A stretch of 61,338 nucleotides of DNA, filler included, from Rhizaria sp. SCN 62-66 (Eukaryota), in NCBI GenBank assembly GCA_001724265.1. It is 3 parts of 3 records of this genome, joined end to end, with 100 filler letters (N's around TTAATTAATTAA, not from the genome) between each part and the next. Parts side by side here need not be neighbours in the genome. Positions count along the whole stretch, not along the records: positions 20,664 to 41,085 come from MEDY01000457.1; 2 more parts are not named here. One strand, 5' to 3'. Under the pieces are notes generated by a model, which saw nothing but the letters and a program-made list of their open reading frames with translations, was not told the DNA's origin and made no database searches. Every line of letters starts with the position of its first letter. Within the stretch, counting starts at the first letter, position 1. The position numbers and the translations under genes were made by a program. This document shows positions 20,564 to 44,100 of this stretch, one piece after another.

Positions 20564-20663
20564 NNNNNNNNNNNNNNNNNNNNNNNNNNNNNNNNNNNNN
20601 NNNNNNNTTAATTAATTAANNNNNNNNNNNNNNNNNNNNNNNNNNNNNNNNNNNNNNNNNNNN
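20564..20663. other. Artificial contig spacer (N44-TTAATTAATTAA-N44)
   Basis: 100-nt N-padded six-frame-stop linker, identical to 41086-41185. Confidence 0.98.
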
Positions 20664-22774: not shown

Positions 22775-23287
22775 TTAGAGGTCGTCGTCGTCATCGTCGT
22801 CGTCGGAGTCGTAGGACTGCTTCTTGCGCTGGATGCGCACGTTGGACTGCTTGCCCATGCTCACCTGCGCGTACGGCAAAGCAATGGCAGCAACAAAAAA
22901 GCAAAAGCATAAGGAAACAGGGACATGGCAAGGTGAGACAGAGATTGATATAAGCGCATCAAGAGTATCACGGGTTAAAGTACGAGAATGCATTGAGAGG
23001 GGTGTAAGATGGTACTATGGGCGTACCTCATCGAGCATGCGCTTGAGCTGCTCCTCGGTGACGCGCTGGGCCATAAAGCCGTTCTCGGCGCGCTCGACGA
23101 TGAGGTCCGACACGGCCTCGGCCTTGTCCGGGTACACGAGCGCGAGGCGGTCCAGGCGCTCGCGGGCCTCGGGCGACAGCAGCGCCGCCAGACTGATCGA
23201 GCGGCGCTTCTTCGCCTCCGCGATCTGCTTCTCGCGGGACATCTTCTCGTCGGCCTGCTGCTTCAGCTGCGAAGGGTCGATAGACAT
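22775..23287 (-). CDS. PDCD5: Programmed cell death protein 5 (dsDNA-binding family), ~116 aa
   Basis: Exons 23287-23027 and 22864-22775 (TAA); 'LLSPEARERLDRLALVYPDKAEAVSDLIV...RVTEEQLKRMLDEV...RIQRK' followed by an acidic tail. Confidence 0.92.
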
Positions 23288-23550
23288 TGCGCTGCGGGGC
23301 AGGTAACGGAATGTGGGAGTGGAAGCATCATCGGTGACTTGGTGAGCAAGCAAAAGTGGGATGTTGACGGCAATAACATCTGCTGCGGCGCATATAATTG
23401 ATTGCACAGAAATAAAATAGAACGCATATTGCGGGTTGTTGATAGCATGATCTGAATGACGGTTAGGATACAGCGTTCGAAGGATCTTCGTTTGAACCCC
23501 CTAGTTCGAAAGAGTCTCACTGGCCGGCCAACTGCTGCCGGTCAAAAAAA

Positions 23551-25720: not shown

Positions 25721-28700
25721 TTACTGCTTGCTGCTACCACTGAGCACCGTGCGCGCCCGGCGGTCCGCCTCGCGCGCCCAGCGCTCGTGCTGCAGCCTGC
25801 GCGAAAGCAGCGCGGCGGGCGGCGCGACGGTGCCGTGCGTAGCGCGCCACCAGAGCACGGCGTCCTCGCCCGCGGGCACCAGCGTCGACGCCCAGAGCAG
25901 GCCTTCGTTCTCCTCAGAGCTCGCGGCGCCGGCGCCGGCAGTCGCAGAGGCAGTCGCGTCAGCCTCAGTTGTCTCGCTGCTGTCGTTGCTCTTGGTGCAG
26001 CCCACAGCAGCGGCGGCGGCAGCCTCGTGGCGAGGGTGCTCCACCTGCACCGACAACACGCGGCGCGTCGCCGGCGCCTCCGTCCCTACGGGCGGCAGCA
26101 CGTACGCGTCGAAGAAGGCGCACACCGCGCTCCGGGTCAGCGCACGCACGTGCGGGAGCAGGCGCTGCGGCGCGAAGTCGAAGTCTGCGCGCCCGGTGCT
26201 GATCTCATCCCATAGCGCGCCCGCCGCGGCGCCGGGCGTCTGGGCCGCGGCGACGGCGCCCGCGCCCTTGCCGCCCGCGACGGCGTCCTCGGCCATCGCG
26301 TTGGCGTGCTTGAGGAACGTCTCCTCGTCCATCGCGCCGAGCGTGTCGGCGCGGAACTCGCGGAGAAAGGCGTGGAGCCTGTGCTGCAGCACGGCCGCGC
26401 TGTGTGTCGAGGACTGAACGGCAACAGTGACGGCGGGCACGGCGGCGCCCAGCGCGGCGGGGGGCGCACCCGAGGATACACTGCCGACGGAGCCGCTGTG
26501 CGTGGTCGTGGGCGCGAGCGCGAGACCCGTGTGGACGATGTACGCCAGCGACTGCTTGGCGCGGAGCGAGTCGAAGCAGGGCTCGCGCATCACGCGGCCC
26601 ACAAACGCGGCCAGCGCGCTGACACGGAGCCACTTCTCCTCGAGCGGGGCACCGCTGACGTCGGCGAGCACGGAGGCGGGCGCGCCGGCAGGCAGGATCT
26701 GGAAGTAGACGCGCAGCGCGCTGTTAGCGTCGTTGGTGGGGTTGGTGGCGCGCAGCCGGAGCAGCGCGGCCTCGCCCGCGTCCATCACGGGACAGGGCGG
26801 GAAGGCCGGCAGCAGGCGCTCGAGGGCGTGCAGCGCGCGCGGGCGCGGCTCGGGCGCAGTGGAGGCGCGCGCACCGGTCGCCACAGAGGTACTCGCATCC
26901 CCAGGCTTCGAGCTCGCAGCGCTAGCGCCGCCCGCGCCAGGGAGAGGAGCAGGAGCGGACATGAGGTGAGGCAACACCACCTTGCCACTCTCCGCCTTAG
27001 CGCTGTCTGCACTAGCGCTCGCATTCGCACCCGCAGCAGCGGTGTCAGCAGTAGAGACGGAAGCAGAGCCGAGAGCGCGGGTGCCCAGCGCGCTGAAGGC
27101 GGGGATAACCAAGACGCCGGCCGCGGCCGCGGTGGCGGAGGCGGCGTCGGCGGCCGCGGCCGCGGCGGCGTCTGCGGCGGCGTGCGCGGCCGCAAAGTCG
27201 CATGCAACGGCGGCGGCGTACTCGCTGAACAGCGACGCACTACCCGCAGACGCAGCCTCAGCAGCAGCCGCGGCAGAGACGGCAGCAGCGCCAGCCTCGC
27301 CGTTACCGAGCTTGCTGACCGCGGCGACCCAGGGCGCCGCGAACGGGTCCCCAGCGCTGCCCCGGGGCGGCGGTGTGGGGCAGCACGGCAGCCTCGCAGC
27401 CACCGCGCGCGCAAGCTCGAGCGCGTCCGCGCGGGACACGTTGCCGCTCACGAGCATCTCCACGCGGCCGGGGCAGACGCCGCCCGCCACGCCGGTGGGA
27501 ACGGCGTCGGCACCGGCACCGACACTGGCGACGGCGTTGGCGCGCGCCGCGGGGGGCGCGAGCGCGGCGGCGAGCGCGGTGACGTCTGCGAGCGTGACGG
27601 CCTCTGCGGCGCGGAGCCTGGCCGCGCGCGAGAAGGTGTGGTTCTGCAGCAGCAGCGCGGCGCCCTGCGAGGCCTGGTCGAGCGGGGACGAGGCCGCAGC
27701 GAGGTTGCGGTACGAGCGCAGCACGCGCTCCTTCATCAGCGCGAACTTGTCCGCGCGCGGGCGGAAGGCCGCCACGGCGTCGAGCACCGTCAGCACGAGC
27801 TTGGCCAGCGTGTCCGAGTGCCCGGCACACGTCAGAGCGAGCGTGCTGGGGCCCGAGTCCGTGTCCAGGTCGTAGCTCAGCCCGGCGCACTGCGCGGGGT
27901 AGGTCGCCGCCGAGAGGTCCTCGGTGATGAGGGCGAGGAGCAGGTCCGCGCGGACCAGCGAGTCGACGTCACCCGCGGGGAGCAGCGTCGGCAGCGTCGC
28001 GCGCACGCGGACGAAGGTCTTGGGCACGGCGAAGACGCGGTCGGCGCGGTGCCAGAGCGTCACACCCGCCAGCGCCGAGTCAAGCAGCAGGCGCGGCGGC
28101 ACGGGGTCACTGCGCAGCGAGACCGGCAGCGCAGCAGGGGCGTCGCCGGCGGCGCTAGTATGGGTCGAGGCGGGGGCGTCGGGGGGCGGGAGCAGAGGCC
28201 CGGCCTCGGCGCCGCGCTTCTGCCGCCATGAGAGCACCTCCGCAAGCGAGCGCAGGGGCGGCAGCGCGGCAGTAAAGCCATTGAGCTTCGCGCCGTCCTG
28301 CTGCTCAGCTGCAACGCCGGCGCTGCTGCTGCTGCTGCAGTTGCTGTTCGGCTGAGGAGAGACGGGTGCGCCGCAGCTGCAGCCGCTGCGAGCCCACTCA
28401 GGGCCACTGGCGGCGCCCTTGGCACTGGCGGCGGCGCACACGCATTGCCACTGCGGCTCCAGCTCGGGGGTCACGATGGTGAAGTCACTGGGCAAGAACG
28501 GGTTCGGCGGCGGCAGTGCCAGGTGTCCGTAGTCGATCACCTTCTCGCCGCTCCCACCGCTGGCGTCACCGCTGCCGGCAGCGAGCGCGCGCGTGGCCTC
28601 GGCGATAAACCAGGCGGGGACGAGGTCGCGGCGGTACTGCGTGCCGTAGTGGCACTCGCGCAGGTTCATCCCCACTGCGCCGCCATCGTCGTCGGCGATC

Positions 28701-31062
28701 TTTGCAGGCTGCGCTGAGTCGTTCGAAGTGTCATCAGCAGTTTCGCCGCTGGCCTTCTTCGCGCCGCCGAGCACCTGCGCCGCGACGTCGACACGCACGC
28801 GCTGGGGCGTAAGGCATCGGAGCAGCAGGCGCGCGTGTGCGGGCTCGAACATGTCATAGACGTAGCCGCGCGCGGTCGCGTAGCGCATGTCGGCACACTT
28901 GACCGCCCTCGCCACCTCGGCGTCGCCCGCGGTCCCGGTCCCAACGCCCGCAATGCCCGTGGCGTCGTGCCTGCTGCGGATGGCGGCGGCCTCGGCGTCC
29001 GAGGGCGCGTCGTAACAGTACTGCAGCGCGGTGGCCAGACTCGAGGCGTAGTCCTCGGCGCCGGGCTTAGGCAGGAAGCGGAAGCGGACCGCGCGCGTGA
29101 GCGCGTACTCGGCCTGCAGGCGCAGCAGCTCGGCATCGCTGGCCGCCGCCAGCACGCCGCAGTAGCGGAACACGTGCGCCGCGACCTCCCACAGCCGCGC
29201 CAGGCCCTGCTCTGTGAGCGTAACGTCGACGCTGAGGGTGGAGAAGTCGCGCTGCAGCGCCTGGCCCGCGCCGCAGCTGAGCCCCGTGGCAAGCCCCTTG
29301 CGCTTGAGCTCATCCAGCACGGACCCGGGTCCCTCGTCGCCGATTAGGTGCGCCAGCAGCGACCCCGCGCCCGACCGCGGGCCAGGCCACGCGCCCTCGG
29401 GCGGGATGACCCACGTTAGCGTCAGCTCGCGCTTGTCGCGGACCGGCACCCACGTGTAGACGGCACCCTCGCAGCCGGGGAACGCGCGAATCAGGCGGGT
29501 CGGCACCACGCCCACGCGTTCCTCCTCCTCCACGGGAGGGGCCGCGCTAGAAACAGCACTTGCATTAGTATTAGCTTCAGAAGCAGCAGGCGGGGCGTCC
29601 TCGCCGGGCTTGCCGATGCCCCGGAGGACCCTGGCCGCTGCCGCGGGGTCACGCGTGGCGACCGAGGGCCGCCACTCGGAGCGCAGGTCGGTGGCGTTGC
29701 AGCCGGAGACGGGAGCCACCGCGCAGGCCGCCGCGGGGCGCGAGGCGCGCACGAGCGCGGCCGCGGCGTCAGCGCCGTTCACCACAGCCGCCGCGCCGCC
29801 CGCACTGGCGTCCACAGCAGAGCTGGAGCCGTCGTCATTGGGGCCCGAGCCAGCGGCAGCGTCGGCGTCAGCGTCAGCGTCAGCGTCGGCGTCGGCGTCG
29901 GGGTACAATGCGGCGACGTCCATGGTGGGCACGGCCTGCGCGAGCCTGGCCAGCGCGAGCTGTTGCGCCCGCGAGGCGCGCCGCCAGGGGTTGTTCAGCA
30001 GCGGGTGCGACCCGTACCGCTCCGGCACGGTAGACGCCACTGCTGAGTCAACAGGCGCAGAGAGCGACTGTGGAGACCGGAGGGACTGTGAGGACTGCGC
30101 GCGCACCTCGGCGAAGTCCTCCTCGACCCACTTGCGGAGCGTGGCCACGTCCTCGCAGCCAACGACGACGACGGCGAGGTTGGGCCCGGTGTAGTAGCGC
30201 TCGAACAGCGCCTGCACGGCGGCGCGCGCGCGCGGCAAGTCGTGCAGCGTGTGGCCGTTGCCGGAGCCGAACTGCGCGTAGGGGTGAAGCGGGTTCGACG
30301 TGGCCTTGGTCAGGTGGTAGATGCGCCGGCCGTCCGAGGGCAGGTTTTTCGTCCATTCGTTGTGCACCGCGTGCGCCTCGCGCGACATCGTCGACTGTGC
30401 GATCGGGAAACAGAAAAGCAATGCGAGTAATCAGTGAGGAATATTGAGAAGAATATGAAATCACGTGACAACATTGTTTACGCCATAATTACGCTTTAAG
30501 CAGTTGTAAGTTGAAATGATAGAAACTTGCCAGTTCACTCAAATATGGAGTATTCCGCGCGTACCTCGAGGAAGAGCGGCTTGATGAAAAAACGCGAGAG
30601 CCTCTGGAGCGCGGGCCGGAGCTGTCCGGGCGTGACGCGGCAGTGGTAGTTGGTGTGCTGGCCCGAGGTGAAGGCGTTGGAGCCGCCGCCGTTCTGCGCC
30701 AGAAACGTCGCGAAGTCGTTCTCGACAGGGAACTTGTCGGAACCCATGAAGGCGAGGTGCTCGGCAAAGTGCGCGACGCCCGAGACGTCGCCGTCGCTCT
30801 GGTGACCGACGAAGACGTCGACGGCGCAGGCCGCCTTGGCTGCCGTCGGGTCAGACACCACGCACGCGCGCAGCCCGTTGGCGAGCAGAAACACGGCGTG
30901 CGCGCGGTCGTCGTTCGGCGATAGCACGGGCGACACTGCCGCGCCCGACGCGCGGAGCGCGCGGGGCGTGCATTCGGACTCGGACAGGCCGTCAGCGGCA
31001 ACGGGCGCAGCCGCGGCGTGCGGGTCAGCGTTAACAGGGGCGCTGGCGGCTTGGGAGCTCAT
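25721..31062 (-). CDS. Insulysin-like M16A metallopeptidase (IDE/Ste23 family), ~1723 aa from the ATG at 31062; possible N-terminal extension from 31479
   Basis: Exons 31062-30565 and 30394-25721 (TAA). LANGLRACVVSDP, inverted zinc motif HFAEH followed by LAFMGSDKFP, GGGSNAFT, third ligand in REAHAVHNE, HLIGDEGPGS, LPPPNPFLPSDF, EPCFDSLRAKQSLAYIV. Confidence 0.93.
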
Positions 31063-31819
31063 GGTGCGAGTGTTGGGGGCGGCAGCGACGCGGGTGTTGG
31101 CGCTGTAGCTGCTGTTAAGGGATGCAGAGGCAGTATAGTGACGAGAAGCGATGGCAACGCGGTTGACGCTTTCGGTTGCTGTTTTCGGGGATCCAGCGCT
31201 ATAAATGTATACATATCAGCGTCGTAATCATGCGATGGGATTATGTTCGAGAAGGTGAGCGATATCGTGTGTCTTAGGGTGCCAGTGGATACGAGGTCAG
31301 CGAATCTGCTTCAACATGAAAGCGAGACTCAAAAGTGGAACAGATGCAGAGATATAACGGAGAGATATAGCGGACCTAGCAAGAGTGCTGAATACGCGAG
31401 GGGTAGTGAGAGGAGCGTAGTGTGCACGGACAGCGACGGAACGGACCGCTCGGAGAGCTCTTGCTGCGCGGTGTAACACTGCAGAGGGGGTCAGCGAGTG
31501 AATGATGAGGGTGAGCCCGGGATGAGGATGCGACAGTTGGCGCAGATAGCGAACGACTATGGAAGTATTATTACCATACCTTTAATTTTTCGTTCAAAGG
31601 ATTACAAGGACGAGCTCGTAATACCTTTGGACGGACTCTAGAGTGGTATCAAAAGACTTTGATTTGGACATCAACCGGTGATGACTAGCTGCCGCACGCA
31701 ATAATTTTCGTGGCTAAGGTTATTTACGTCAATATGTACGACAAAACCGATGAGATTTCTGATAACGCCACCTTGTCTACATTAAAGCACAATTCTATCT
31801 TGGAAAATGATGCTGACAT

Positions 31820-32260
31820 TTGTATACGGGCTGGGTAATCTACTCCGATATCGAGATTATCTCAAGCTCCGCTGGTCATCGACCACCAATTCTCCCGCAG
31901 TGCGCTCGCCACTTTGACGCGCGATGCCGATGCAGTTGGCTCCGCCACCATCGTATTCCCGAAGGCTGTGGCCGAGACCTGCAGGAAGATCATGCCGGTC
32001 CGCAGCAAGGCGGCCAAGGCGGCCGTCGCTGCCGACATCGCGAAGGCGGCTCATGCCACACCATCGCCGCGAAGCAGGCGGCCATGAGGGTGAAGAGTAA
32101 CATCAAAGCAAGCATCAACCCTACCTCAGCGACCACTCCCGCCGCCGCTACCTCGATCACGACCTCAACTACGGCCTCGGCCTCCTCCGCACACACTGCG
32201 GTCGCCACCGACTCGCCGCAGCCACTACGGCCGACAAGGCTGAGCCCAAAAGTGTACTAG
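31820..32260 (+). pseudogene. Isolated GC-rich, frameshifted coding-like fragment of unknown origin
   Basis: Coding-type codon usage switches frame around 32050 (…PKAVAETCRKIMPVRSKAAKAAVAADIAKAAH to HTIAAKQAAMRVKSNIK…). No convincing start codon or splice structure. Confidence 0.35.
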
Positions 32261-32894
32261 TATGTTTTTGCGCGTTTAGACTTAAAAACTTAATATTTTG
32301 CAGGTTTGTAGATATACCCAGTTTCAATAATAGCTGACCAACCAATTCTTTAATAGAAAAAAACTCTCTTGCTTAATCCCAGTGGAGTCAATTTTGGATC
32401 ACCCGTTCAAAATTGTCCAAAGAATGGTAGGCTTGGTGCTGTTGCGTACACAAGCAATCATGATGTGCGTCAAGAACACTGTTCTGATTGTTTCCAAGTT
32501 TTGCTTCTTCATGTATCAAACTCCTTCGACATCTTTCATATTCTTGTCGTTACCTGTGACGCACGACATTTTACATAAAAGCATGTGAGACGGTGACTAA
32601 GACGGCCAACGGTTTATTCCCCTCGCTGTGATCAAAGGTGGTGTTTCTGTGTTCGAAAGTCGTGTTTCTTGTGTAAATAATAAGCATTTTAAATACATAC
32701 AATTCGAATCATAAGCTTTAAACACAGAAATCACACACTTTAAAGACAGAATCCTTCCGTGTGTGTTCACATAAAACACCACCCTTGTATCCGGAGCTTG
32801 GTAGGTCGTTGGGTGCCGTTTCTATGTGGTTTTTGTTCCTGTGAGAGAGTCCCTTTCTGTAGAATTTCGCGCGTAACATTAGGTTGCTAAACAT

Positions 32895-33156
32895 TGATTT
32901 GTGGTCGAATAGACTTTGTAAAAACTTTGGAAAAATGATTTGTGGTCGGATCCATACCGTCCCATGCTCATCCATGCCTGACCATACCTGGCCATGCCTG
33001 CTGAATCGCGGGCAAACGCGCACAGATAAAGAATTGTTTCTACGTGTATAGCATTGTCGATTGAATAAACCTAGAATTGAAGGAATCAGGGAGAAACAAC
33101 GACGAGGAGTATCTCAAATCATCCATGCAAATTCATGCTCATCCATGCCTGACCAT
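32895..33156. repeat. Cluster of short direct repeats, possibly part of a non-autonomous transposon
   Basis: TGATTTGTGGTCG at 32895 and 32936; CATGCTCATCCATGCCTGACCAT at 32963-32985 and 33134-33156; several CCATGCCTG-like units. Confidence 0.6.
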
Positions 33157-33449: not shown

Positions 33450-36400
33450 ATGGCGACCAAGGTGTCATCCTGCTTGGGTTGCGGCGGCAATATATACTTC
33501 TCCCCTGGAGCTAAGCCTCGGCGTCTCTGTGCATCGTGCCTGAAGGTACGACACTCCTCCCCTCAATGATGCGATTATCTTAGTGCGATTATTTTCTTGG
33601 ATTTGTTTCTCCTCGCACCAGCTTCAGGCTGTGCTCATTGTCACTCATATCATTCCCAAACTGACGAACTGTCTTTGAAAGCTACGTTAAAAAACTCGCA
33701 TATTCGATTTCTGTTTGATGTTCAATCGTACTTGTATTCTCCACCCCCCAGGAAGAGATCGCCAAGGCGGACGCCGACGAGCTGTCGTCTCAGTCACCTG
33801 TTTCTAGCAACGATCCCAACGTACGCTTGCAGCACTGACAGTTATTTAAAGACTTCTCGAATCAATAATTCCACTTCAGCTGTCCAATATATCATACTGT
33901 AATCATCTAACAATCCAGTCATCTGTAGCTTGCATGCACACGTTACGCACCTGAAGCAACACCAATCTAAAAATGTACAAAATCTACATGTTGTACTTGT
34001 ATTTTCTTCCTTTCTTTTTGCACAATTGCTGTTCTTGCACAGTACTGCCACAAACACTAGTCGGCGGGTCCAATTGAGATAATCAACTGGTGCAACCCGT
34101 GTAACGCCCCTGCGTGCCATCAGTGTCTCGCGCTGGACGACGTTCACGCAGGACATGAACGCCGCGAGCTCAGCGCTGTGCGTACTTAGCTGTTGAATGC
34201 CTCAAAGGCTTTACCCCTGATGCTTACTAGTTTCGAAAACAAGGTCAAGGTTCGTCACAGTATTTACGTTGCAAAAGCATTCATCGTAATACGTGTATAC
34301 ATTTTTTGTACATGTATTAATATAGTACTGTAAAATAATATTTTGCGTTATGTTGTGTGCGACCAACATATTGGGCAGATATCTAACATTTTGATGTGTC
34401 CTTTTATGCATATATCTATATCTTCATCTAAATTTGTTCACACTCCACACAGAATCAAGAGAAGGTGATGGAGACATTCAGGGACAAGGTCGACTCTGAT
34501 CACACAGCGCTGATTGAGCATAGCTCAACTTACGCAGCCCAGGCTGCTGCACCCCTTGCTGCTGTGCTTTCACAGCTAAAGCTCTACGTCAAACAGTCAA
34601 AGAGTGCTGAAGACGCAAGTCTTGAAATCTCGCGCATTAATCTCGCCGAGTTCACTAAGGCTGCTGCTGCACCCCACATCTCAGCTCTGGCCGCTCTTGT
34701 CACCCAGAGCCCCGGCTGGCCGAGGCGAATTGATCCACCGCTTGTCGTCGGAAGCATCAAATACGCTGCCGCATGCAAAGCCTTTGAGGACGCGCTTGCC
34801 TACGCCGCTGTTGCATCCCATCCGCGCAAGGCAGTCTGCGAGGCTGACGTGCCACTCTCAAAGCTCGTGCGCAACGCTGATGCATTCGAGCTTGGCACAG
34901 CCGATCTGTGCGGTGTGCGTTTTTCTTTTCGGGCACGCCGCGGCTGTAACTGCGTCGCGAGTCCACTGATAACATCTTCCAGAAATGTTGAAGGCAACAA
35001 TACACGTGACCCATGCGGGTGTGGCATTGTGTGCGAGGCTACGGCATCTCCTGTCTGGGAGGCTTTAAGTGCACTTTACGACGCATTTGGTAAGCACGCG
35101 CGGGCAGTTGACAACTTGATTTCGACTGAGGACTTCATCGACGAAAAAGACGACGATGATAATAAACACTCTGATGGCGGTGTTAGTTGCGTCGACGGCA
35201 GCAACACTGATACATCAAAGGCGAGTACAGACAACAAGAGTGGGAACAAGAACATGAGTGGCAAAAAGAAGAACCGTAACAGTGCTGCAAACACGCCGAT
35301 TGTGAAAAGTGAGTTAGCGCCAATCGACTTGTCGAAGAGAAGCTCGCAGCGCAGCTTTGTGACTGTCGAAAGTACGTTTGGCCGTGTCGACGTCACATTC
35401 TCTGTGCGCACGGCGACGTCTGAGACCTCAGACAAAAGCAACGAGTCCAGCGAAACAGGCGCACTGTGGCTCACCGCAGACAAGAACAATAACGTAAACA
35501 AGGATAAAAGCGAGGACGCGAGTGATGCGTGCAAAAGCAAGCAATGGTATGATGTTCACAATCATGTAACGCGCGAAGACAAACAGACAGTAAAGGTGAC
35601 ACTAAGTTTGCCGCATGCAGTAGTCAGAAAGAAGACTAACAACAATGGCAACTACAGCAACGCCAACACCCATACTCCGAATGCAGTACACGTTCGGTGT
35701 ACAGTGTCGTTCCCGGACGTTGTGCAGCAGGCGCATGCGCTGCAACTGTGTGTCGATGCAATCGCCGCCGAGGAGGCCACCGTCAAAGAGCGGCTTGAGG
35801 CTGCCGAGGCCGCAAGTGCAGAGCGTGTACAGGCTGCTGAAGCAGCAGGCGAAGCCGCTGAGCGCGAACGCGAGCAGGCCCGCGCTGCAAAGATTGCGTC
35901 AGAGGACGCTGAGGCGGAGGAGGCAAAGCGCAAGCGGGAAGCCGCGTTGGCAGTACACGACGCTGAGATGGTACGCGAGTGGCGCAAGGACCTGCAACGC
36001 AAAAAAGGGGAAGAGGCCGATTTACGAAAGTTTACTCAAGGGATCGAGTGGGAAGCCGCTTTTAACGCGCATATTGCGTGCTGTCTGGAAGAAGAAGGGT
36101 ATCCACGCCTGGTTTCATATAACGCACAAACTGGTTATTATGACTCTGCGGTAGCCCCTGCGCGGATTAACGGTGCACCAACGGAGGCCGTATTATCGCT
36201 GCTGCAGTCCAAGGCGCGCGCGCGGATTCAGGATCATATCCTAACAGAGATCGGAGCCGAGCACGCTAACTCGGATGTTATGCTGACGTCGTCGTTGTAT
36301 AACTCCAATGACGGGGAACATAACACATACTATACAAGGATCCGGCTTAATGATGACAGCTATCCTAGCCACGCCGCGTACTTTCGCGCCGCTTGTCAGG

Positions 36401-36894
36401 CATCTACACTGGGAACTTTCGTCCACAGCTGTTTTGTGCCGCTACTGTATTCTGCATCATCCCTTCCGTTTGTCACTCTGTACCACCCAAACGATGAGGT
36501 GCCGTGCGCTACCAGTCTTGCGTTACCAGAGACCGACATTGTATATGGTGAGTACAATGAGTATAACAGTGCTATAACCTATCCTGTTGGCACGGTGTTA
36601 ATGTATCCTCGTGCAGTAGTTTCGGACGGGGTCAACGGTGAACCGACGTACAACACGCCGTGGTTTATTACCTTTGAGCCCTGCGCATCCAGCATGTTGC
36701 GCGGTGCGGTGCCTGTTGGTCGCGTTATGTCTTGTCAGGCAGAGTCCTCCACGTCGAATGTTGATAACATGAGTCAACCCTTTGACGAAACGGCCCTGAA
36801 CTGCTTCCAATCTTCCTGCAGTGCGGGCAGCTGCTATAAGAATTGCGACAACACATATTCAAGTTTTGTTTATAGCAGCTTTGAGAGTAAGTAA
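33450..36894 (+). CDS. Cys4 zinc knuckle, B-box, coiled coil and degenerate cyclophilin-like protein, ~913 aa, with an in-frame TAG at codon 61
   Basis: Exons 33450-33545, 33752-33820, 34043-34177, 34453-36894 (TAA), all phase 0. CLGC...CASC; B-box CHKH*...CNPCNAPACHQC...HAGH; coiled coil 'AEEATVKERLEAAEAA...'; cyclophilin-like segment at ~36330-36730. Confidence 0.65.
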
Positions 36895-37243
36895 GTTCGT
36901 AAACAACTCACCAACAGCCACGATGACTCATCTGCAGTCACGTCAACATAATAGACACATACTCGGACTAGCTCCAACAACAAGATCGCAACAATACTGT
37001 GTCACACCACGCAATAATAGACATTAGGCACTGACCTTACAACATATCGCAATAGAGACAAGAAAAAAAGCAAATCATTTATGATCCGTATCAACAGCGC
37101 AACTGCGACATCGATACCTAATTTAGAAATGTGTCAGAGTCGAACGCAACTATGCTGTATTCCATGGTCGCTTGAAGTGCTGTTAAGCAAGTTGAGCATC
37201 GGGCTTAACCACTCGCTGACTCTGGCTTACTCAGCACCCCCGG

Positions 37244-40200
37244 TCAGAACCTGCCTCCCAGCGCCCCCGCGGCGCTGCCTGTGAGCACTGCGCCCGCGAC
37301 TGCCTGCGCGGGCAGCACCAGCGCCGCCTTGTCGCCGTGGCGGGCCGCGTGCGCCCCACCGTGCGCGCCGCCGCCGCCGCGCAGCCGCGCGTAGCGGCCG
37401 GCGCCCGCGGCCGAGGGCAGCGCGGAGGCAGCCAGCGTCGCCGTCGTCGCCGCCAGCAGGTCGCCGTGGGCTGAGTCGCCGTGCCGCGCACTCGCACTGC
37501 CACTCCCAGTCGCACTCACGCTAGCAGTGGCGGCGAGGCCCTGCTGTGAGCGCGAGTGCGGGCGAGAGAAACCGGCGTTGCCGTCGCCGCTCGCTACGCT
37601 GTTATTAATGTTCGCAGGGGTGAGGTCGAAGAGATCAACGGCGCGGGACGGCGGCCGCGACCGCGCACTTACAGTCCCGCCTACATCCTCCCCCGCGCCC
37701 GCGTGCGCGTTGCTGATTATCACACCCGCGCTGCCGTGGGGCACCGCGAGGCTCTGCGTGTAGCCCTTGCTCAGAAGCGTCTGCGCGCGCGGCGCCGCGG
37801 CGGCTGCCGTCACGCCCGCGGGCCCCACGGTCGCGGGCGTCTGCGGGCCGCGTTGCATGGGCGCGAGCGGTGACGGCGACGACAACAGCACCGCGGCCAG
37901 CGCGCCCGGCGCCGAGGGGCGCGACGGCGGCCGCAGCGCGCTGCCGTCAGGCCCCGGACCCGGGCCGGACGCCGTGCTCGCGGTCGCATCGGCCGCGCTA
38001 GAGTTATTGATGACATCGGCCACGGTCGCCGCCGTTGCAGCGCCGCTCTGAGCATGCGACGGCGACTGATGGGCTTGTGTCTGCGAGTTGATACGGGGCA
38101 AAGCGGCCCCTGCAGCGCGCTGAGACAGCCCCCGCTGCAGCCGTCCGGTCGCCGCAACCGCGCCAAACCCGGTGCCGCCGTTGGCCGCATTAGCGCTGTT
38201 GCTGGCGTGAGAGTGGTTGTGCGCGGGAGCACCGAGCCGGTATTTGTACAGCTGCGCGCCACCGCTGCTAAACCCACCAGTCGTCATGCTCCCGCTGCCC
38301 CCCGCCGCTGTATGCGCGTGCGAGCCCAAGTGGGAGTTCGTTGTGGTGGTGGCAGCGAGTGAGGAGGAGACCTTGGCGAGCTTGGCGGCGAGCTCGGAGG
38401 CAACCTCGTCCGTGTGCGCTGCCTGCTCGCGCGCCGAAGCCAGCAGCAGCGACTCGGAGCGCTGCGCGCGCGCGGTGAGCTCGCGACCCAGGCGGTCCAC
38501 GCGCGTGCGCACCGTCGCCAGCTCTTGCGACAGCTGCCGAGGGGGCCAAACACAGCCAGAAAGAATAGATGTGTGCATGTGAGAAAATAATTAATACAAG
38601 AAGTAAAATATTAACGCAATATTTTTTTTTTTAAAACCACCACAAATATGGCGTTGAAATCAAGCGTAAAAACATGAGGCACAATTTCAAGCTAGCTAGC
38701 ACATTATCAACATGTTGGAGTAATACGTGAGTAGTTTTCATTGAGCGTACCTGCGTTGCTTTGAGTCCGGCCTGCGACTCCTGCTTGATGCCCCTGTCCG
38801 CAAGCGCGGCCTCCGCCCGGCCGAGGCGCTCCTCGACGGCCCTGAAGGCGGTGTAGCAGTCCTTGCCCAGCGCCGCGTTCGCCGCCTCGGCCGCGGCCAC
38901 GCGTGTCGTCAGCGTTGTCTGCAGCACGCCCAGCGCGGCCTCCACAGCCGACACACGCGCGCCCAGCGCGGCCGCCGCGTCGGCGGAGCGACCCGTGGAC
39001 TGGGAGAGTTGCTGGCCCAGGGTCGCGAGCGACACGGCCGTCGACGACGACGCTGAGGCGAGGGAAGAGCGCGTGGTTTCGAGCTGTTGGAGAGAAATAA
39101 TCAATAAGCAAAATAAACAGAAGGTATTTAGATCCAATCCCGTGTTAGAAATATGATTTTAGTGTGAAAAATAGAAATCGTAGTGATCTGTAGTTGGAAA
39201 CATAGTCGTTTGTGCGGTGGCTTACCTCCTCCTCGACCCTGTTTTTCAAGTCGCGCACGAGCGTCCTGACGGAGGCGAGCTGCGTGGTCATGGCCGCGTG
39301 GAAGGTGTCCGCCATGCCCTGCAGACTCTCCTGCAGCAGCCCTAGCCCCGCGCGCGTAGTGCCTGCGGCAGCCGCGGCGGCCGTGGACGCCGATGCCGCC
39401 TCCAGAGTCGACGCGGTGGCCCCCGAGATGCCGCCGCCACCGCCGCCGACAGCCGCGCCGGCCGCAGCGCCCGCAGTCAGAGAGCTGGAGGTGGCGTTAT
39501 GGGTGCCGTCAGCATGAGAAGAGCTAGTAGGGTCGAAATAACTTGTTTTGTGGGTGTTATTATTCGGATTTGTGAACGCGACGAGCGCAGTCGCAGCCGC
39601 CGTAGCAGCGCTGCCGCCAGCCCCGGCAGCAGCACCAACATTGCTGTGGTGGCTGTATGAGTTATTAGAGTTGTTCCCATAGTCATTGTTACTATTTCGG
39701 CCACTGCCGCTGCTGTTCGCGGCGGCGACGGTGGCAAAATGCCTGCTCATGAGCTCGAACTGCCCCTGCATAGTCGTCATGGCCGCCGTCTGCGCCTGCG
39801 CGTGCAGCGTCGCGAACTGCCGCGCCGTCGCCTGGAAGCGCGCCTCCAGCTCCTCTCCGCGCGTGCGCTGCGCCGCGCTTTCGCGCATCACCTTGTCGCA
39901 GAGCCGCGCTGTGAGCGCGCCGCGCTCAACGGCGTCGCGGCCCGCGGCGGCGACGTCGGCGGCGAGCTGACGCCCCCAGGCCTTGGCGGCGGCGTCGGCC
40001 GCGACCGTCTGCCGCGCAAGCAGGATGAGCTCGTCCTTGGCGCGCGCGCCCTCGCCGTCCAGGTGCAGCAAGTGCGCGCGCAGCTCGTCCGTCGCGCGGG
40101 TTGACTAGGCGCGCGCGTGCCGTAGCTCCTCGCGCAGCGTCGACTGCGCGGCCGACAGCGAGGAGAGTTCGGCCAGCACCAGCGCCAGCGTCACGGGCGG

Positions 40201-40618
40201 CTGCGAAGGGCCGACGGAGCCAACGCCAACACTATTGGAACCTGTGGCCGGAGATGATGTTGAGGTGGCGGCGGAACTGGGAGGCAGGAAGCCCTCCAGG
40301 GTGGTTTTGAGCTCGTTGAGCGAGGTCTGAGTCGTCCGTTGCTGTTGGAGGGTGTTGTTTCAGTTTTGATCGAGTGGACAATAGCAGGGAATACGTTGCA
40401 AGCAAAATAAGCATCATGAAAAGTAATTTAATAAATACAAAATTATCAAATAAGACGATTGTATCATTTGAGTCAACTCCAAGGCCTGTACATGTGAGTC
40501 TTTTGAGAGACGCAGCAACGGGAAACCGGCTTGGGTTACGGTCCTGAAAGGTATGTACCTCGATGGCGAGATGACGAACAATGCTCGTGAGAGCTGCAAG
40601 ATCAAGGATGTCCCCCAT
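37244..40618 (-). CDS. Uncharacterised coiled-coil protein, ~932 aa, with an in-frame TAG at codon 99
   Basis: Exons 40618-40559, 40341-39226, 39083-38751, 38533-37244 (TGA), all phase-0 GT-AG. The reading is continuous through TAG at 40107-40105 (…TLREELRHARA*STRATDELRAHLL…). Confidence 0.75.
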
Positions 40619-40860
40619 TTTAGGTCAGGTTAGAGCAGGAAACTCCAGTGACTGCGATTTAGCCGTCGGCCTCAGAGAGTGTGACGATAGTCTCACACAG
40701 ACTGCTTGTGGAGGCTGATTGAGGGTTGAGTTACGTAAGGTTCCTAAGCGATCACAGAAATATAATAAAAACATTCAAAAAAGAAACAACGGTTAAATAT
40801 CAAAATTAGTACCCATGTCTTATCTGACGGACTATATGCTAATGTTGAGAACGGTTTTTT

Positions 40861-40890
40861 AACGATGGCGAAGCAACGATGGCGAAGCAA
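40861..40890. repeat. 14-nt tandem duplication (AACGATGGCGAAGC)x2 upstream of the coiled-coil gene
   Basis: aacgatggcgaagc aacgatggcgaagc aa. Confidence 0.85.
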
Positions 40891-41085
40891 TCTTGCGCAG
40901 ACCCCCCTCGGTCGCCACTCAGCCGTGTCACCACCGTTGTCGCATGATCGTGGTATCGTTTCAAGATAGTACGTAAGCTTGCCGTATGTTACCGCCGACA
41001 TTTAGCATAAAATACCAAGTCTCACAGGCTCACACTGGGGCAAACACCACCCACGGTCGTTTCGGGGCGGGTATATAAAGGTGGC

Positions 41086-41185
41086 NNNNNNNNNNNNNNN
41101 NNNNNNNNNNNNNNNNNNNNNNNNNNNNNTTAATTAATTAANNNNNNNNNNNNNNNNNNNNNNNNNNNNNNNNNNNNNNNNNNNN
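41086..41185. other. Artificial contig spacer (N44-TTAATTAATTAA-N44)
   Basis: Same 100-nt linker as 20564-20663. Confidence 0.98.
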
Positions 41186-44100
41186 CCGCCGCGGCCGCTG
41201 CGGCCGCAGCGCTGGTGGTGGTCGACGCCGCGCTGGCGCCGGCCCCCGCGGCGCCGGCGCCGCCGCCGAGGCCCGCGCCCGCGCCGCCCGCGCCCGCGCC
41301 CGCGCCGTCGCCCGAGGCGGGACGCGCGGGGTGGCGCCAGTTCTCGCGCAGCGCCAGCGCGGTCACGGCGGCCGTGGCGGCGCGCAGGATAGCCCGGAGC
41401 GCCGACTGCGAGAGGTCGTCGCGCAGGTGCGTCAGCGTGTGCTTCAGCACGGGGTGCAGATACAGGCCCTGGCCCTTGGCGCTCACGGTCGCGCCGCCGC
41501 CGCCGGTCGCGGAGGAGCCGCCGGCGCCAGAGCCCGCGCCGCTGGCGAGCGTCTTGCCGCCGCCCGCGGGGCTCTTGGCTCCAGCGCCAGTGCCGCCAGT
41601 GCCGCTGCTGCTCGCGGCTGCGGTAGTTTTGGTGTTGGAGAGCGTGAGGATGAGCTGGTACATGGCGTTGACCGCCTCAGCCGTCTCGCCGACGCAGGGC
41701 AGCGGCGGCACGGCCGTTCCCGCGGTGGCGACAATGCAGTGCGCGACCGGGCCCGTGGCCAACAGCAACGAGTGCGAGCCTACGACGCTGTTGCTCACAG
41801 GTACACCGGCGCCATTGTTGTTGCCGTTGCCGCCGGGCGCGCTGGCGGTGCCGCAGGCGACGCTGCCGACGAGCGGGTTGTTGTACTGCAGCTGCTGCTG
41901 CTGCTCGATCTGCTGCTGTCGCATCACGAACGACAGCGGCCACTGCAGGTACCCGGCCTGTCCGTGCGCCGCGGCTGCCGCAGCGAAGTGGCCGTGGGCG
42001 GCGGGCCCCAGGTGCCCGTGCGCGCCCACCAGCTGCGCGTGCGCGCCGTTGTAGCTGCTATAGTATCCGGCGCCCAGGGCGGCGCCCGCGACGGCGCCCG
42101 CAGCGGTGCTGTAGCGCGCGGCGCCCGCGAGCGCGAGGGGGTGCACTTCCGCGCCGAGCGACCACACGGGCAGGCCCAGCGGCGCGGCGCGGTTCGCGGC
42201 GGTGATCACAGCGGTGTCCAGCCCCGACGGCGCCGCGGCGGTAGTGTGCGCCGTGCCGGTGAAGGCGAGGCCGCCGCCGACGCCGATGAGGCCGCCGGGG
42301 CCGCCGCCACCGCCGCCGCTGCTGCTGCTGCTGAGGGCGAAGTGACTGTGGGCAGAGGGGACCAGGATGCCTTGGCCGCCAGCTGCGCTGAAGCCGCCGC
42401 TGAAGGCACCGTTGCTGCCGCGGTAAGTACTGCTGTTATTGTTGTAGAAGTTGTTGTACGTGTTGACCCCCCACCAGGGCTTGATGCTCACGACGTTGTT
42501 GCCCAGAACGGCGCTCGAGCCCGCGTTGTGGCCGTTGCCCGCGCCACTGCCACTGCCACTGCCTGCGCTGCCGCTGTCCGCGCCACCGCCGCCGCCGCCG
42601 CCGGTGCCCCCGCTGTTGCTGAGGTAGTTGCTGCTGCTGATGGTAGTTTCTGCGGCGGCCACGGTGGCGGCGAGCGAAGCCCCAGGAACGAGGACCGTGG
42701 GCGCAACCGCGGGCGGCGTCGGCAACGGTACTGTAACCACCACGGGCGCGCCTGCGGCGACCGAAGCGAGGATGCTGGTCGCTAGCGGCGTCGCGGCCGC
42801 GTCGGTCAGGTGCCGCGTCAGTGCGTCGCCGATGCTCGCTGAGGTGCTCACGCCGACGGGGGCCGCACTGAGCCCGCCGCGCTTGCCCGAGGTCGACGTG
42901 CTGAGGCTGCTGCTGCTGCTGCTAGCGGTGCTGCCAGACTTACCGCCAGTCGTCGTCACAGTCGTCGTCGTCGTCGTCGTCGTCGTGACCGTGGTCGTGC
43001 CGCTGCCGCTGCTGCCGTCGGCGACCGCGGTCGTCTTGAGCAGTAGCGCCAGCGCGCGGTCGGACAGCAGCCGGGCGGGGCTCACCAGCGACAACAGCAG
43101 TGACGAGTCGTCCTCGGCGTAGCCGACCCCGCCAGCGCCGGCGCCGCTGGCCAGACTGCTCGAGTTGTTGGCCGCGTTGGGGGCAAGGCTGCCGCTGCGG
43201 CGTCGGGCGCTGCCGCTCGAACCGCCGGCGGTCTTGCTCCCGCTCCCGCTCGCGCTCCCGCCCGCACTCGCACTCGCGCTGCCGGCGCTGCTGCCGCTGC
43301 TGCTGGCGGTGTTGCTGCTGAGCTGTGTGAGCGAGAGGTCGTGCCTCGCGATGGCGCCCGTGAGCGCAACCGTGTAGTGCAGCCCGTCGGTGGTGTACGA
43401 GGTCACCTGCGACAGCGGCGTGAGCGGGAAGAGCTGCTCCAGCGCCAGCGCCGACACCAGGCGCGCGCTCGCGCTGCTGCTGGCCGTCCCGCCCGCGACC
43501 ACGGCGGCGCGCGCGCCAGCGCCGGCGAGCGCGCCGCCGCCGCCGCCGCCGCCGCCAGCGCTGGGGGGAAGCACGCCGAGGGAAGTTAGCACACTGCTGT
43601 AGCCGGTGTTGCCGCTGGCGGCGCCGGTGCTGTAGGCGTTGTTGACGTTGCTCGCGGGGTTGTTCAGCGTATTGTTGGTGTTGTTTGTAACGCCGCTGGT
43701 CGCAACGCCAAGCGCCCCGAGACCGGCACCGACGTTGCCGTTGGCGCCGCTGCTGCTGGCGCCGTTTGCGGCCGGGCTGAAGGGCAGCGGGAAGGGCATC
43801 ATGAGCAGGCGCAAGTAGAGCCCCAGGCGCGAGATGACGGATGTGACGACCTTGGCCGCCTTGACGCGGTCGCGCGGCGTCGGATCCCACGTGCGCCGGC
43901 CCGCGGCCGCCGCGGCCGCCGCGGCGCCGCCGTCGCCCCTGAGCGCCGCCGTCGTCGCCGTGACGGCGACGGAGGCGAGGACGCCCGAGACAACGCTGCT
44001 GGCGAGCCGCAGCAGAGGCGGCAGGTGCGCCGCGGCGAGCGCAGTGAGCGCGCGCGCGGCGGCGGCGTTGGCGGCCGACACGAGCGCGGGGGCCGTGCTC

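What the first reader, a model, noticed from the sequence alone, without database searches (positions are those of the whole stretch)
34058..40107. Possible UAG recoding: two in-frame TAGs in otherwise intact genes, and no gene ends in TAG
Seen: TAG at 40107-40105 (minus strand) lies mid-exon in a GC-rich coiled-coil frame (TLREELRHARA*STRATDELRAHL), with ~830 intact codons and canonical introns downstream and no pyrimidine tract that would make it a splice acceptor. TAG at 34058-34060 (plus strand) lies inside a B-box (YCHKH*SAGP...CNPC). Both share the context C-TAG-TC. The 16 gene ends I could define use TAA (11) or TGA (5), never TAG; if TAG were 20% of stops, 0/16 has probability ~0.03. 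Known: UAG-only reassignment with UAA kept as stop exists in Iotanema spirale (Gln) and an uncultured rhizarian (Leu), and UAG correction by A-to-I editing occurs in Sordariomycete fungi. Inference: this lineage may read UAG as sense, or recode it in a context-dependent way. Caveats: only 2 TAGs in ~14,000 codons, so CAG>TAG sequencing errors or pseudogenisation remain possible, and the 34058 TAG could itself act as an in-frame alternative acceptor.
Basis: partly seen in the sequence, partly recalled or inferred. Interest (0 to 1): 0.82.

Follow-up and report, generated by a model that had tools for sequence, protein, structure and literature searches.

The report
Two in-frame TAG codons, cause unresolved
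Two neighbouring genes of an uncultured wastewater protist each carry a real in-frame TAG, one exactly where relatives have glutamine, which most likely reflects ordinary CAG-to-TAG nonsense mutations, though a young UAG-to-glutamine recoding is not excluded.

Summary
Both TAGs are in the assembled DNA and both lie in coding sequence, and none of the 16 gene ends I could model uses TAG (11 TAA, 5 TGA).

New evidence for the minus-strand gene. It has two metagenomic homologues (E 8.7e-17 and 2.5e-13). In an ungapped conserved block, the TAG at 40107-40105 aligns with glutamine in both. The spliced gene has 932 codons and this is its only stop.

The plus-strand TAG at 34058 follows the C-x2-H that the B-box needs. 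The upstream exon supplies no Cys or His.

This does not show recoding:
- CAG>TAG is the single most likely nonsense substitution with this codon usage (19% of all; 63% of nonsense changes give TAG).
- There are only 2 TAGs in about 14,000 codons, against about 60 expected for a neutral Gln codon.
- Gene A evolves almost neutrally between strains.
- No tRNA, eRF1, genome or usable RNA evidence was available.

My estimates: nonsense alleles, possibly leaky, about 0.55; UAG read as Gln about 0.15. A-to-I editing to Trp, a UAG=Leu code, a hidden intron at site B and a RIP-like process are disfavoured.

The parts
40105..40107 (-). In-frame TAG, codon 99 of gene B; aligns with Gln in two homologues
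40559..40618 (-). Gene B exon 1 (ATG at 40618, 20 codons, MGDILDLAALTSIVRHLAIE)
   Evidence: the alignment to P0006 crosses the exon 1/2 joint
40342..40558 (-). Gene B intron 1, 217 nt, GTACAT...CAG, GC 0.40
39226..40341 (-). Gene B exon 2 (372 codons), holds the TAG and the conserved block
39084..39225 (-). Gene B intron 2, 142 nt, GTAAGC...CAG
38751..39083 (-). Gene B exon 3 (111 codons)
38534..38750 (-). Gene B intron 3, 217 nt, GTACGC...CAG
37244..38533 (-). Gene B exon 4 (429 codons) with terminal TGA at 37246-37244
34058..34060 (+). In-frame TAG inside the B-box exon, directly after C-x2-H; its AG is also a possible in-frame alternative acceptor
33752..33820 (+). Gene A small exon (23 codons, EEIAKADADELSSQSPVSSNDPN), phase 0 at both ends, no Cys or His
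33821..34042 (+). Gene A intron, 222 nt, GTACGC...CAG, with a pyrimidine tract before the CAG
34043..34177 (+). Gene A B-box exon (45 codons including the TAG)
34178..34452 (+). Gene A intron, 275 nt, GTGCGT...CAG
34453..36894 (+). Gene A last exon (813 codons) with terminal TAA at 36892-36894; no Pfam family
20564..20663 (.). Artificial joint between contigs: 44 N, TTAATTAATTAA, 44 N
41086..41185 (.). Artificial joint between contigs, same spacer; genes A and B lie on the middle contig

Best explanation
Both TAGs are real single-base nonsense changes, most likely CAG (Gln) to TAG, carried by the strain that dominates these bioreactor samples. The two genes are lineage-specific and under modest or weak constraint. 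The organism is an uncultured, flagellated, GC3-rich protist known only from metagenomes.

Gene B is a conserved coiled-coil protein. Its allele stops at codon 99 of 932 unless a near-cognate tRNA-Gln occasionally reads the UAG, which would restore the ancestral residue.

Gene A is a fast-evolving protein with a B-box and a coiled coil. Its TAG lies 6 codons into the B-box exon. It can be skipped in frame if the AG of the TAG itself serves as acceptor, at the cost of the first zinc-ligand pair.

The lack of TAG among 16 gene ends is then a small-sample or lineage preference for TAA.

Shown: the TAGs are in DNA, they are in coding frames, site B sits in a Gln column, and the downstream frames are intact. 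Inferred: the ancestral codon was CAG, the changes are recent, and any leakiness.
For: 1. With this window's codon usage (10,073 codons), 2.1% of random substitutions give a stop. Of those, 63% give TAG, and CAG>TAG alone is 19% of all nonsense changes, the largest class.

2. Both homologues have Gln at the site B column. That is what CAG>TAG predicts.

3. TAG is very rare. I found 2 in about 14,000 codons and none in the conserved genes of the window: M16 peptidase, Sec5, CDK-like kinase, CCDC22, NDK7, PDCD5-like, prefoldin. The T/C synonymous pair TTG:CTG is 65:371. A neutral UAG=Gln codon would therefore be expected about 60 times, and Poisson P(<=2) is 1.6e-23.

4. Gene A diverges 4-6% from the strain in run X4, as much as non-coding DNA does. 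The 12 visible differences fall 4/4/4 on the codon positions, with 4 synonymous and 8 not. At that rate about one nonsense hit in this lineage is expected under near-neutral evolution (my arithmetic).

5. In yeast, Gln is one of three residues inserted at UAG by natural suppressor tRNAs (PMC4150775, abstract). A CAG>TAG allele can therefore be partly functional.
Against: 1. Two nonsense codons in 16 genes, 6 kb apart, with no frameshift and no TAA or TGA, is more than I would expect for one strain. This is my estimate, not a measured rate.

2. Gene B is conserved on both sides of the TAG (E 5e-27 to P0006 over residues 3-215). It keeps 833 open codons and three in-phase canonical introns after the TAG.

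3. Gene A's last exon shows 0 indels in about 1,700 nt compared with strain X4. About 1,700 nt of non-coding DNA shows 11 or more indel events (tables 4 and 8). So the frame behind the TAG has been kept.

4. 0 of 16 gene ends use TAG, although G-ending codons outnumber A-ending ones about 4:1 in two-fold purine boxes. Across 50 eukaryotes TAG use rises with GC3 (PMC9348620, figure legend passage).

5. Both sites share C-TAG-TC.
Confidence: 0.55

Rival explanations
1. UAG is read as glutamine in this lineage. This could be a young UAG-only reassignment (UAA and UGA kept as stops) or a chronically leaky UAG, for example through a tRNA-Gln(CUA) or weak UAG recognition by eRF1. TAG would then have been purged from gene ends and is only starting to appear at Gln positions.
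For: The TAG of gene B aligns with Gln in 2 of 2 homologues, in an ungapped block. The second TAG lies in a true coding frame after the C-x2-H of a B-box. 0 of 16 gene ends use TAG. The downstream frames are intact and constrained. UAG-only codes with UAA and UGA as the stops are known (PMC5304391, passages: exLh 56 UAA / 15 UGA; Iotanema 104 UAA / 15 UGA).
Against: There are only 2 TAGs in about 14,000 codons and none in the 7 Pfam-named conserved genes. That is about 0.5% of Gln codons, against about 8% in Iotanema and about 60 expected at neutrality. Only one site could be aligned. All of these results fit CAG>TAG mutation equally well. No tRNA lies in the window and no genome is held.
Confidence: 0.15
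2. Site A only: the AG of the TAG (34059-34060) is the acceptor actually used, or an alternative one. The 18 nt YCHKH* are then spliced out in frame and the TAG never reaches the ribosome.
For: The two AGs are 18 nt apart and in frame, behind one pyrimidine tract. A TAG acceptor is used in my model of the kinase gene. Pfam scores the exon without the six codons slightly higher, 27.1 against 23.6 bits.
Against: The six codons encode C-x2-H at the place where a B-box needs its first ligand pair. Pfam aligns Cys2 to profile position 6. The upstream exon has no Cys or His. The first AG after the tract is the CAG. No RNA joint was seen, because run X5 does not cover this part.
Confidence: 0.25
3. 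Sequencing or assembly error, or a collapsed heterozygous site, in a low-coverage metagenome assembly.
For: Depth is only about 4.5 to 7.3 at the two sites. All assemblies that hold the TAG may come from one sample series. X2 and X3 gave identical contigs, and the 308-residue ORF behind the TAG is identical on all 6 contigs.
Against: The same letters stand in the JGI, ENA and Logan assemblies. Two consensus errors that both create TAG in frame, with no indel errors anywhere in the ORFs, would be odd.
Confidence: 0.05
4. RNA-level correction as in filamentous ascomycetes: A-to-I editing turns UAG into UGG (Trp).
For: Both TAGs have U at -1 of the A by definition and fall in predicted hairpin loops. 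Fungal editing prefers such sites (PMC11156358, start of abstract in the search listing).
Against: The homologues have Gln, not Trp, at site B. The folds are no better than shuffles, z -0.35 and -0.58. The window encodes NDK7 with a DM10-type domain and CCDC22. From recall, filamentous ascomycetes lack these, so the organism is unlikely to be one.
Confidence: 0.02

Closest known systems
UAG-only reassignment to glutamine in Iotanema spirale (Fornicata), Panek et al. 2017, PMC5304391
   Same: In-frame UAG at a Gln column. UAA and UGA are the only terminators seen, with UAA the commoner.
   Different: Iotanema has 204 in-frame UAGs in 126 genes and UAG is about 8% of its Gln codons (passages). 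Here there are 2 in 16 genes, about 0.5%. No tRNA, eRF1 or transcript evidence is available here.
UAG = Leu in the rhizarian exLh (same paper)
   Same: UAG is absent from gene ends; the stops are UAA and UGA.
   Different: The one alignable TAG here sits at Gln, not Leu. [quoted passage not shown]
Premature UAG alleles read through at low level by near-cognate tRNA-Gln (yeast; PMC4150775 and PMC13192750, abstracts)
   Same: UAG replaces a Gln codon, and readthrough would restore the original residue.
   Different: The QXQ context reported to favour this in yeast is absent: the contexts here are RA-X-ST and KH-X-SA. No measurement of readthrough exists here.
Premature-stop genes corrected by A-to-I editing in Fusarium and Neurospora (PMC5496914 and PMC11156358, search listing only)
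   Same: An in-frame UAG in an otherwise intact gene.
   Different: Editing gives Trp, but the homologues have Gln. The organism has ciliary genes and a B-box protein and is unlikely to be an ascomycete.

Membership tests
Nuclear genetic code with UAG as a sense codon (UAG-only reassignment) | Recurrent in-frame UAG in many genes, including conserved ones | tested here: not met
None lies in the 7 Pfam-named conserved genes.
Nuclear genetic code with UAG as a sense codon (UAG-only reassignment) | In-frame UAGs fall at columns of one amino acid in alignments | tested here: inconclusive
   1 of 2 sites could be aligned, and it is Gln in 2 of 2 homologues. The B-box exon has no homologue on record.
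Nuclear genetic code with UAG as a sense codon (UAG-only reassignment) | UAG is never a terminator | tested here: inconclusive
   0 of 16 gene ends use TAG. p is 0.03 to 0.07 for a 20-15% share. The sample is small and the gene models have no RNA support.
Nuclear genetic code with UAG as a sense codon (UAG-only reassignment) | A tRNA with anticodon CUA, and/or altered eRF1 | not testable with these tools
   No tRNA lies in the window, no Rfam match was found, and no genome is held.
Nuclear genetic code with UAG as a sense codon (UAG-only reassignment) | The UAG is present in mature mRNA, and a peptide spans it | not testable with these tools
   An RNA-library contig of X5 covers site B, but its 2 differences were not listed, and X5 contigs also hold intron sequence.
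Pseudogene | Several disabling changes and loss of constraint | tested here: not met
   Gene B has one stop in 932 codons, no frameshift, and is conserved beyond the stop. Gene A has one stop, 0 indels in about 1,700 nt against strain X4, but near-neutral substitutions.
Programmed stop-codon readthrough | A known stimulatory 3' context or downstream structure | tested here: not met
   The contexts are UAG-UCG and UAG-UCA. The known motifs (UAG-CARYYA, UGA-CUAG) are recalled, not taken from a call. Local folds are no better than shuffles.
B-box zinc finger (PF00643), for the exon that holds site A | Match to the Pfam profile with the Cys/His ligand pattern | tested here: met
   27.1 bits (cut-off 24.1), E 4.7e-6, without the first six codons. 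23.6 bits, E 5.8e-5, aligned from profile position 6, with them.

The most novel reading that the evidence does not exclude
An uncultured, GC3-rich, flagellated wastewater protist is at an early stage of a UAG-only stop-to-glutamine change. UAG would already be gone from gene ends and is beginning to appear at Gln positions, read by a tRNA-Gln(CUA) or by efficient near-cognate decoding. This would be a rare view of a code change in progress, outside the ciliates, fornicates and Rhizaria where UAG-only changes are known.
Probability: 0.15. Interest if true: 0.75.

Novelty: already known. Interest (0 to 1): 0.42.

Why it matters
If the TAGs are nonsense alleles, this is ordinary population variation in a metagenome-assembled protist. 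It also carries a caution: in GC3-rich genomes almost two thirds of nonsense changes give TAG, so in-frame stops that are all TAG are not by themselves a sign of recoding.

If UAG is read as Gln, this would be a further independent UAG-only reassignment, in a lineage with no cultured member. It would be unusual in being caught at about 0.5% of Gln codons, which bears on whether code changes pass through an ambiguous stage.

The question is cheaply testable. The organism recurs in public wastewater DNA and poly(A) RNA runs.

Tried and rejected
Tools that gave nothing:
- The whole genome is not held.
- No tRNA and no Rfam family in the window.

Homologue and locus searches:
- The word-based search for gene B found only its own ORF. 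8,000 low-complexity candidates saturated it.
- The B-box exon search found nothing.
- The JGI metagenome scan returned only L001, identical to the window.
- The scans of genome contigs (2) and viral contigs (1) found no relative.
- The M16 peptidase search for taxonomy gave one unnamed relative at 50% identity.
- The two Atlas searches gave no usable taxon; the second scored under 0.9.

Read laying:
- The differences of the X4 contig over site A (19 in 577 nt) and of the X5 RNA-library contig over site B (2 in 343 nt) were among the 224 rows not shown.
- X5 contigs contain parts of all three gene B introns and show no joints. They say nothing on splicing, NMD or editing.
- Parts without X5 cover are no evidence.

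Cluster look-ups showed only the same sequences with other start calls.

Readings I rejected:
- A hidden GT..AG intron ending at the TAG of gene B (for example 40179-40105, 75 nt, in frame). The homologues align without a gap across these 25 residues, and the donor does not fit the GTAMGY-type donors of the 5 introns tabulated.
- RIP-like C-to-T mutation near the high-copy repeats. TpA/ApT is 0.65-1.0 and (CpA+TpG)/(ApC+GpT) is 0.91-1.39, which is no RIP signature.
- My first scan for in-frame stops by codon score was confounded by antisense frames of GC-rich genes. The segment method replaced it.
- ORF-end TAGs at 23017, 32258 and 55810 as gene ends. They lie behind GTACGC, GTGTAC and GTACGT donors.

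Tables S1 and S2 of PMC5304391 (codon counts) and the species data of PMC9348620 (TAG share at high GC3) could sharpen the two expectations used here.


Full report
WHAT THE WINDOW IS

It is eukaryotic DNA with GC-rich exons (GC3 about 0.6-0.9) and AT-rich introns and spacers. It is not one molecule. Two artificial joints (44 N, TTAATTAATTAA, 44 N) at 20564-20663 and 41086-41185 tie three contigs together. Both genes of the finding lie on the middle contig.

Public runs that hold the stretch are bioreactor, wastewater and activated-sludge metagenomes. No whole genome is held.

Pfam names an M16 peptidase, Sec5, a CDK-like kinase, CCDC22, NDK7 with its N-terminal PH/DM10-type domain, prefoldin, an EF-hand protein and an alpha/beta hydrolase. 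From the sequence I read 22778-23338 (-) as a PDCD5-like gene (name recalled, not from a call). NDK7 and CCDC22 suggest a flagellated protist. I could not name it: searches gave only unnamed metagenomic relatives.

SITE B (40107-40105, MINUS STRAND)

The gene model is as follows:
- ATG at 40618.
- Exon 1 of 20 codons.
- Intron GTACAT..CAG, 217 nt.
- Exon 2, 40341-39226.
- Intron GTAAGC..CAG, 142 nt.
- Exon 3, 39083-38751.
- Intron GTACGC..CAG, 217 nt.
- Exon 4 down to TGA at 37246-37244.

All joints are phase 0. Spliced, the gene has 932 codons, and the only stop is the TAG at codon 99.

The word-based homologue search found only the gene's own ORF. A full HMMER search of 1.84 billion representatives with residues 21-232 (TAG as X) gave 4 hits at E <= 0.001:
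- Two are the window's own ORFs on either side of the TAG: P0002, and the 29-residue P0008, which ends exactly at the TAG.
- Two are true homologues from other metagenomic organisms: P0006 (1629 aa, E 8.7e-17, 34% identity) and P0007 (503 aa, E 2.5e-13, 37% identity).

In the MAFFT alignment the block around the TAG is ungapped. It reads EELRHARA-X-STRATDELRAHLLHLD against QEITFLKQ-Q-HMSHRSELQSHLKYLD and DELQFVKQ-Q-QAKHRAEVQAHLTHMD. The TAG column is Gln in both homologues.

BLASTP of the spliced protein against P0006 covers residues 3-215 (E 5e-27). It therefore crosses both the exon 1/2 joint and the TAG.

This settles four points for site B:
- The TAG is not a gene end.
- It is not an intron end.
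- It occupies one residue position of a conserved protein.
- That position was, or is, glutamine.

SITE A (34058-34060, PLUS STRAND)

I found a small GC-rich exon at 33752-33820. Its acceptor is ...ccccag and its donor is AAC|GTACGC. It is phase 0 at both ends and in the same frame as the B-box exon. It encodes no Cys or His.

The following 222-nt intron ends with a long pyrimidine tract and CAG at 34040-34042. The TAG lies 18 nt further on.

Pfam finds zf-B_box in the exon. With the six disputed codons, Cys2 aligns to profile position 6 (23.6 bits). Without them the match starts at position 14 (27.1 bits).

The upstream exon supplies no ligand, and YCHKH gives C-x2-H exactly where the first ligand pair belongs. 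So these codons are, or were, coding, and the TAG replaces a sense codon. I put the chance of such a motif arising in five random codons at about 1e-3; this is my estimate, not a computed value.

The TAG's own AG remains a possible in-frame acceptor. No RNA covered the place.

Further upstream the gene is unclear. There is a 1.8-kb stretch with a high-copy repeat and a GC-rich part at 31866-32250 whose best frame changes at about 32055.

ARE THE TAGS REAL?

Contigs of runs X2 and X3 cover both sites with 0 differences. These two runs gave identical contig sets and may be one data set. A JGI contig (L001) is identical over 38785-40677. The ORF behind the TAG is called with the same 308 residues on 6 Logan/ENA contigs. 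Depth is low, about 4.5-7.3. I regard error as unlikely but not excluded.

OTHER STOPS AND GENE ENDS

A segment scan found only one place in the window where two coding segments of one frame and strand are separated by a single stop. That place is site B.

Many long ORFs end shortly after GTACGT or GTACGC donors and are exons, not gene ends. After merging them I count 16 gene ends.
- TAA, 11 ends: 4766, 9682, 11005, 19461, 22777, 25164, 25723, 36892, 51121, 56399, 60908.
- TGA, 5 ends: 11788, 22388, 37246, 53058, 56052.
- TAG, none.

The best-anchored ends are the hydrolase and CCDC22 (Pfam profile ends), M16 (it ends within two residues of its relative P0005) and the kinase. The others rest on my models alone.

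The three ORFs that end in TAG end inside introns.

0 of 16 has p = 0.028 at a 20% TAG share, 0.074 at 15% and 0.19 at 10%. Across 50 eukaryote genomes TAG use rises and TAA use falls with GC3 (PMC9348620, figure-legend passage). The TAA-rich, TAG-free pattern here is therefore somewhat unexpected for GC3 of about 0.8.

WHY THIS IS NOT YET RECODING

1. Codon usage of 10,073 sure codons makes TAG the outcome of 63% of all nonsense substitutions, and CAG>TAG the largest single class at 19%. Two of two being TAG has p of about 0.4. Gln at the aligned column is what mutation predicts too.

2. The amount is wrong for an established sense codon. TTG:CTG, the analogous T/C first-position pair, is 65:371. 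A neutral UAG=Gln codon would then occur about 60 times per 14,000 codons. Two are seen, and P(<=2) is 1.6e-23. In Iotanema UAG is about 8% of Gln codons, with 204 in-frame UAGs in 126 genes. In exLh most of 71 genes have at least one (PMC5304391, passages). Only a very young or inefficient recoding fits.

3. Gene A evolves almost neutrally. It diverges 4-6% from the X4 strain, no less than introns do. Its 12 visible differences fall 4/4/4 over the codon positions, 4 of them synonymous. With 2.1% of substitutions giving stops, about one nonsense hit in this lineage is expected.

WHAT SPEAKS FOR RECODING

- Gene B is conserved on both sides of the stop and is otherwise intact.
- Gene A's last exon has 0 indels in about 1,700 nt against X4. 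About the same length of non-coding DNA has at least 11 indel events. The frame behind the TAG has therefore been under selection.
- Two nonsense codons in 16 genes, with no other defect, are many.
- No gene ends in TAG.
- Both sites share C-TAG-TC. I estimate the chance of this at about 2% from the third-position C share and the TCN codon share. The match was noticed after the fact, and the same GCC-TAG-TC occurs in a kinase intron.

WEIGHING

I put the prior for a UAG-only change in a random protist lineage well under 1%. I estimate the combined evidence as worth a likelihood ratio of roughly 10-50. Both figures are judgements.

That gives about 0.15 for UAG being read as Gln, by reassignment or strong leakiness. 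It gives about 0.55 for plain nonsense alleles, which may be partly rescued. Rescue could come from near-cognate tRNA-Gln (Gln, Tyr and Lys are inserted at UAG in yeast; PMC4150775, abstract) and, at site A, from the alternative acceptor. The rest goes to error and other causes.

ALTERNATIVES NOW DISFAVOURED

- UAG=Leu as in exLh, and A-to-I editing to Trp: the aligned column is Gln, and the hairpins are no better than shuffles.
- A hidden intron at site B: the alignment is ungapped.
- RIP-like mutation next to the repeats: the dinucleotide indices do not fit.

LIMITS

- X5 contigs include intron sequence, so they do not show mature mRNA.

Noticed in passing
20564-20663 and 41086-41185: The window is three contigs joined by an artificial spacer (44 N, TTAATTAATTAA, 44 N). 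ORFs that run into the spacers (Sec5 at 41186, the hydrolase at 20664) are cut by contig ends, not by biology.
   Followed up: yes
32463-33104 and 40809-41085: Summed contig depth is 60-520 in the DNA runs against 4-9 around them. These are high-copy or widely shared repeats, one inside the long intron of gene A and one at the contig end, about 700 nt from site B. The dinucleotide indices show no RIP-like signature.
   Followed up: partly
gene B, 37244-40618 (-); proteins P0006, P0007: Gene B belongs to an unnamed conserved coiled-coil family, with members of 1629 and 503 residues in other metagenomic eukaryotes. It has no Pfam family. The conserved blocks are ...ALT.LVR.LAI.. at the N-terminus, ..EL.AHL..LD...K.E....A.Q.. 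and ..MERG..TA.L...
   Followed up: partly
25724-31176 (-); proteins P0005, P0013, P0014: The M16 peptidase gene has an intron after ...FIKPLFLE. A relative at 50% identity has the same joint. P0013 reads into the intron, P0005 starts behind it, and P0014 (1789 aa, on a 6,186-nt contig) is the spliced form, so transcript-derived contigs of the relative exist in public data.
   Followed up: partly
31866-32250 (+): A GC-rich part upstream of gene A changes its best coding frame at about 32055, with a 5-nt gap between segments. An ATG at 32084 overlaps a TGA. This could be a frameshift in a 5' exon of gene A, two small overlapping ORFs, or chance.
   Followed up: partly
whole window: Donor sites are strikingly uniform (GTACGT, GTACGC, GTAAGC, GTACAT). 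At least 9 long ORFs end just behind such a donor. Introns are 140-280 nt with GC 0.35-0.40, against exon GC of 0.6-0.75.
   Followed up: partly
37571-40432 (run X5): Contigs from a poly(A) metatranscriptome cover gene B almost continuously, including parts of all three introns and with no splice joints. The long intron of gene A has none. This points to unspliced RNA or DNA carry-over.
   Followed up: no
34453-36891 (+): The last exon of gene A differs from strain X4 by 4-6%, with as many first- and second-position as third-position changes, but with no indels. This looks like a fast-evolving protein with a B-box and coiled coil, as seen in TRIM-like families (comparison recalled).
   Followed up: partly
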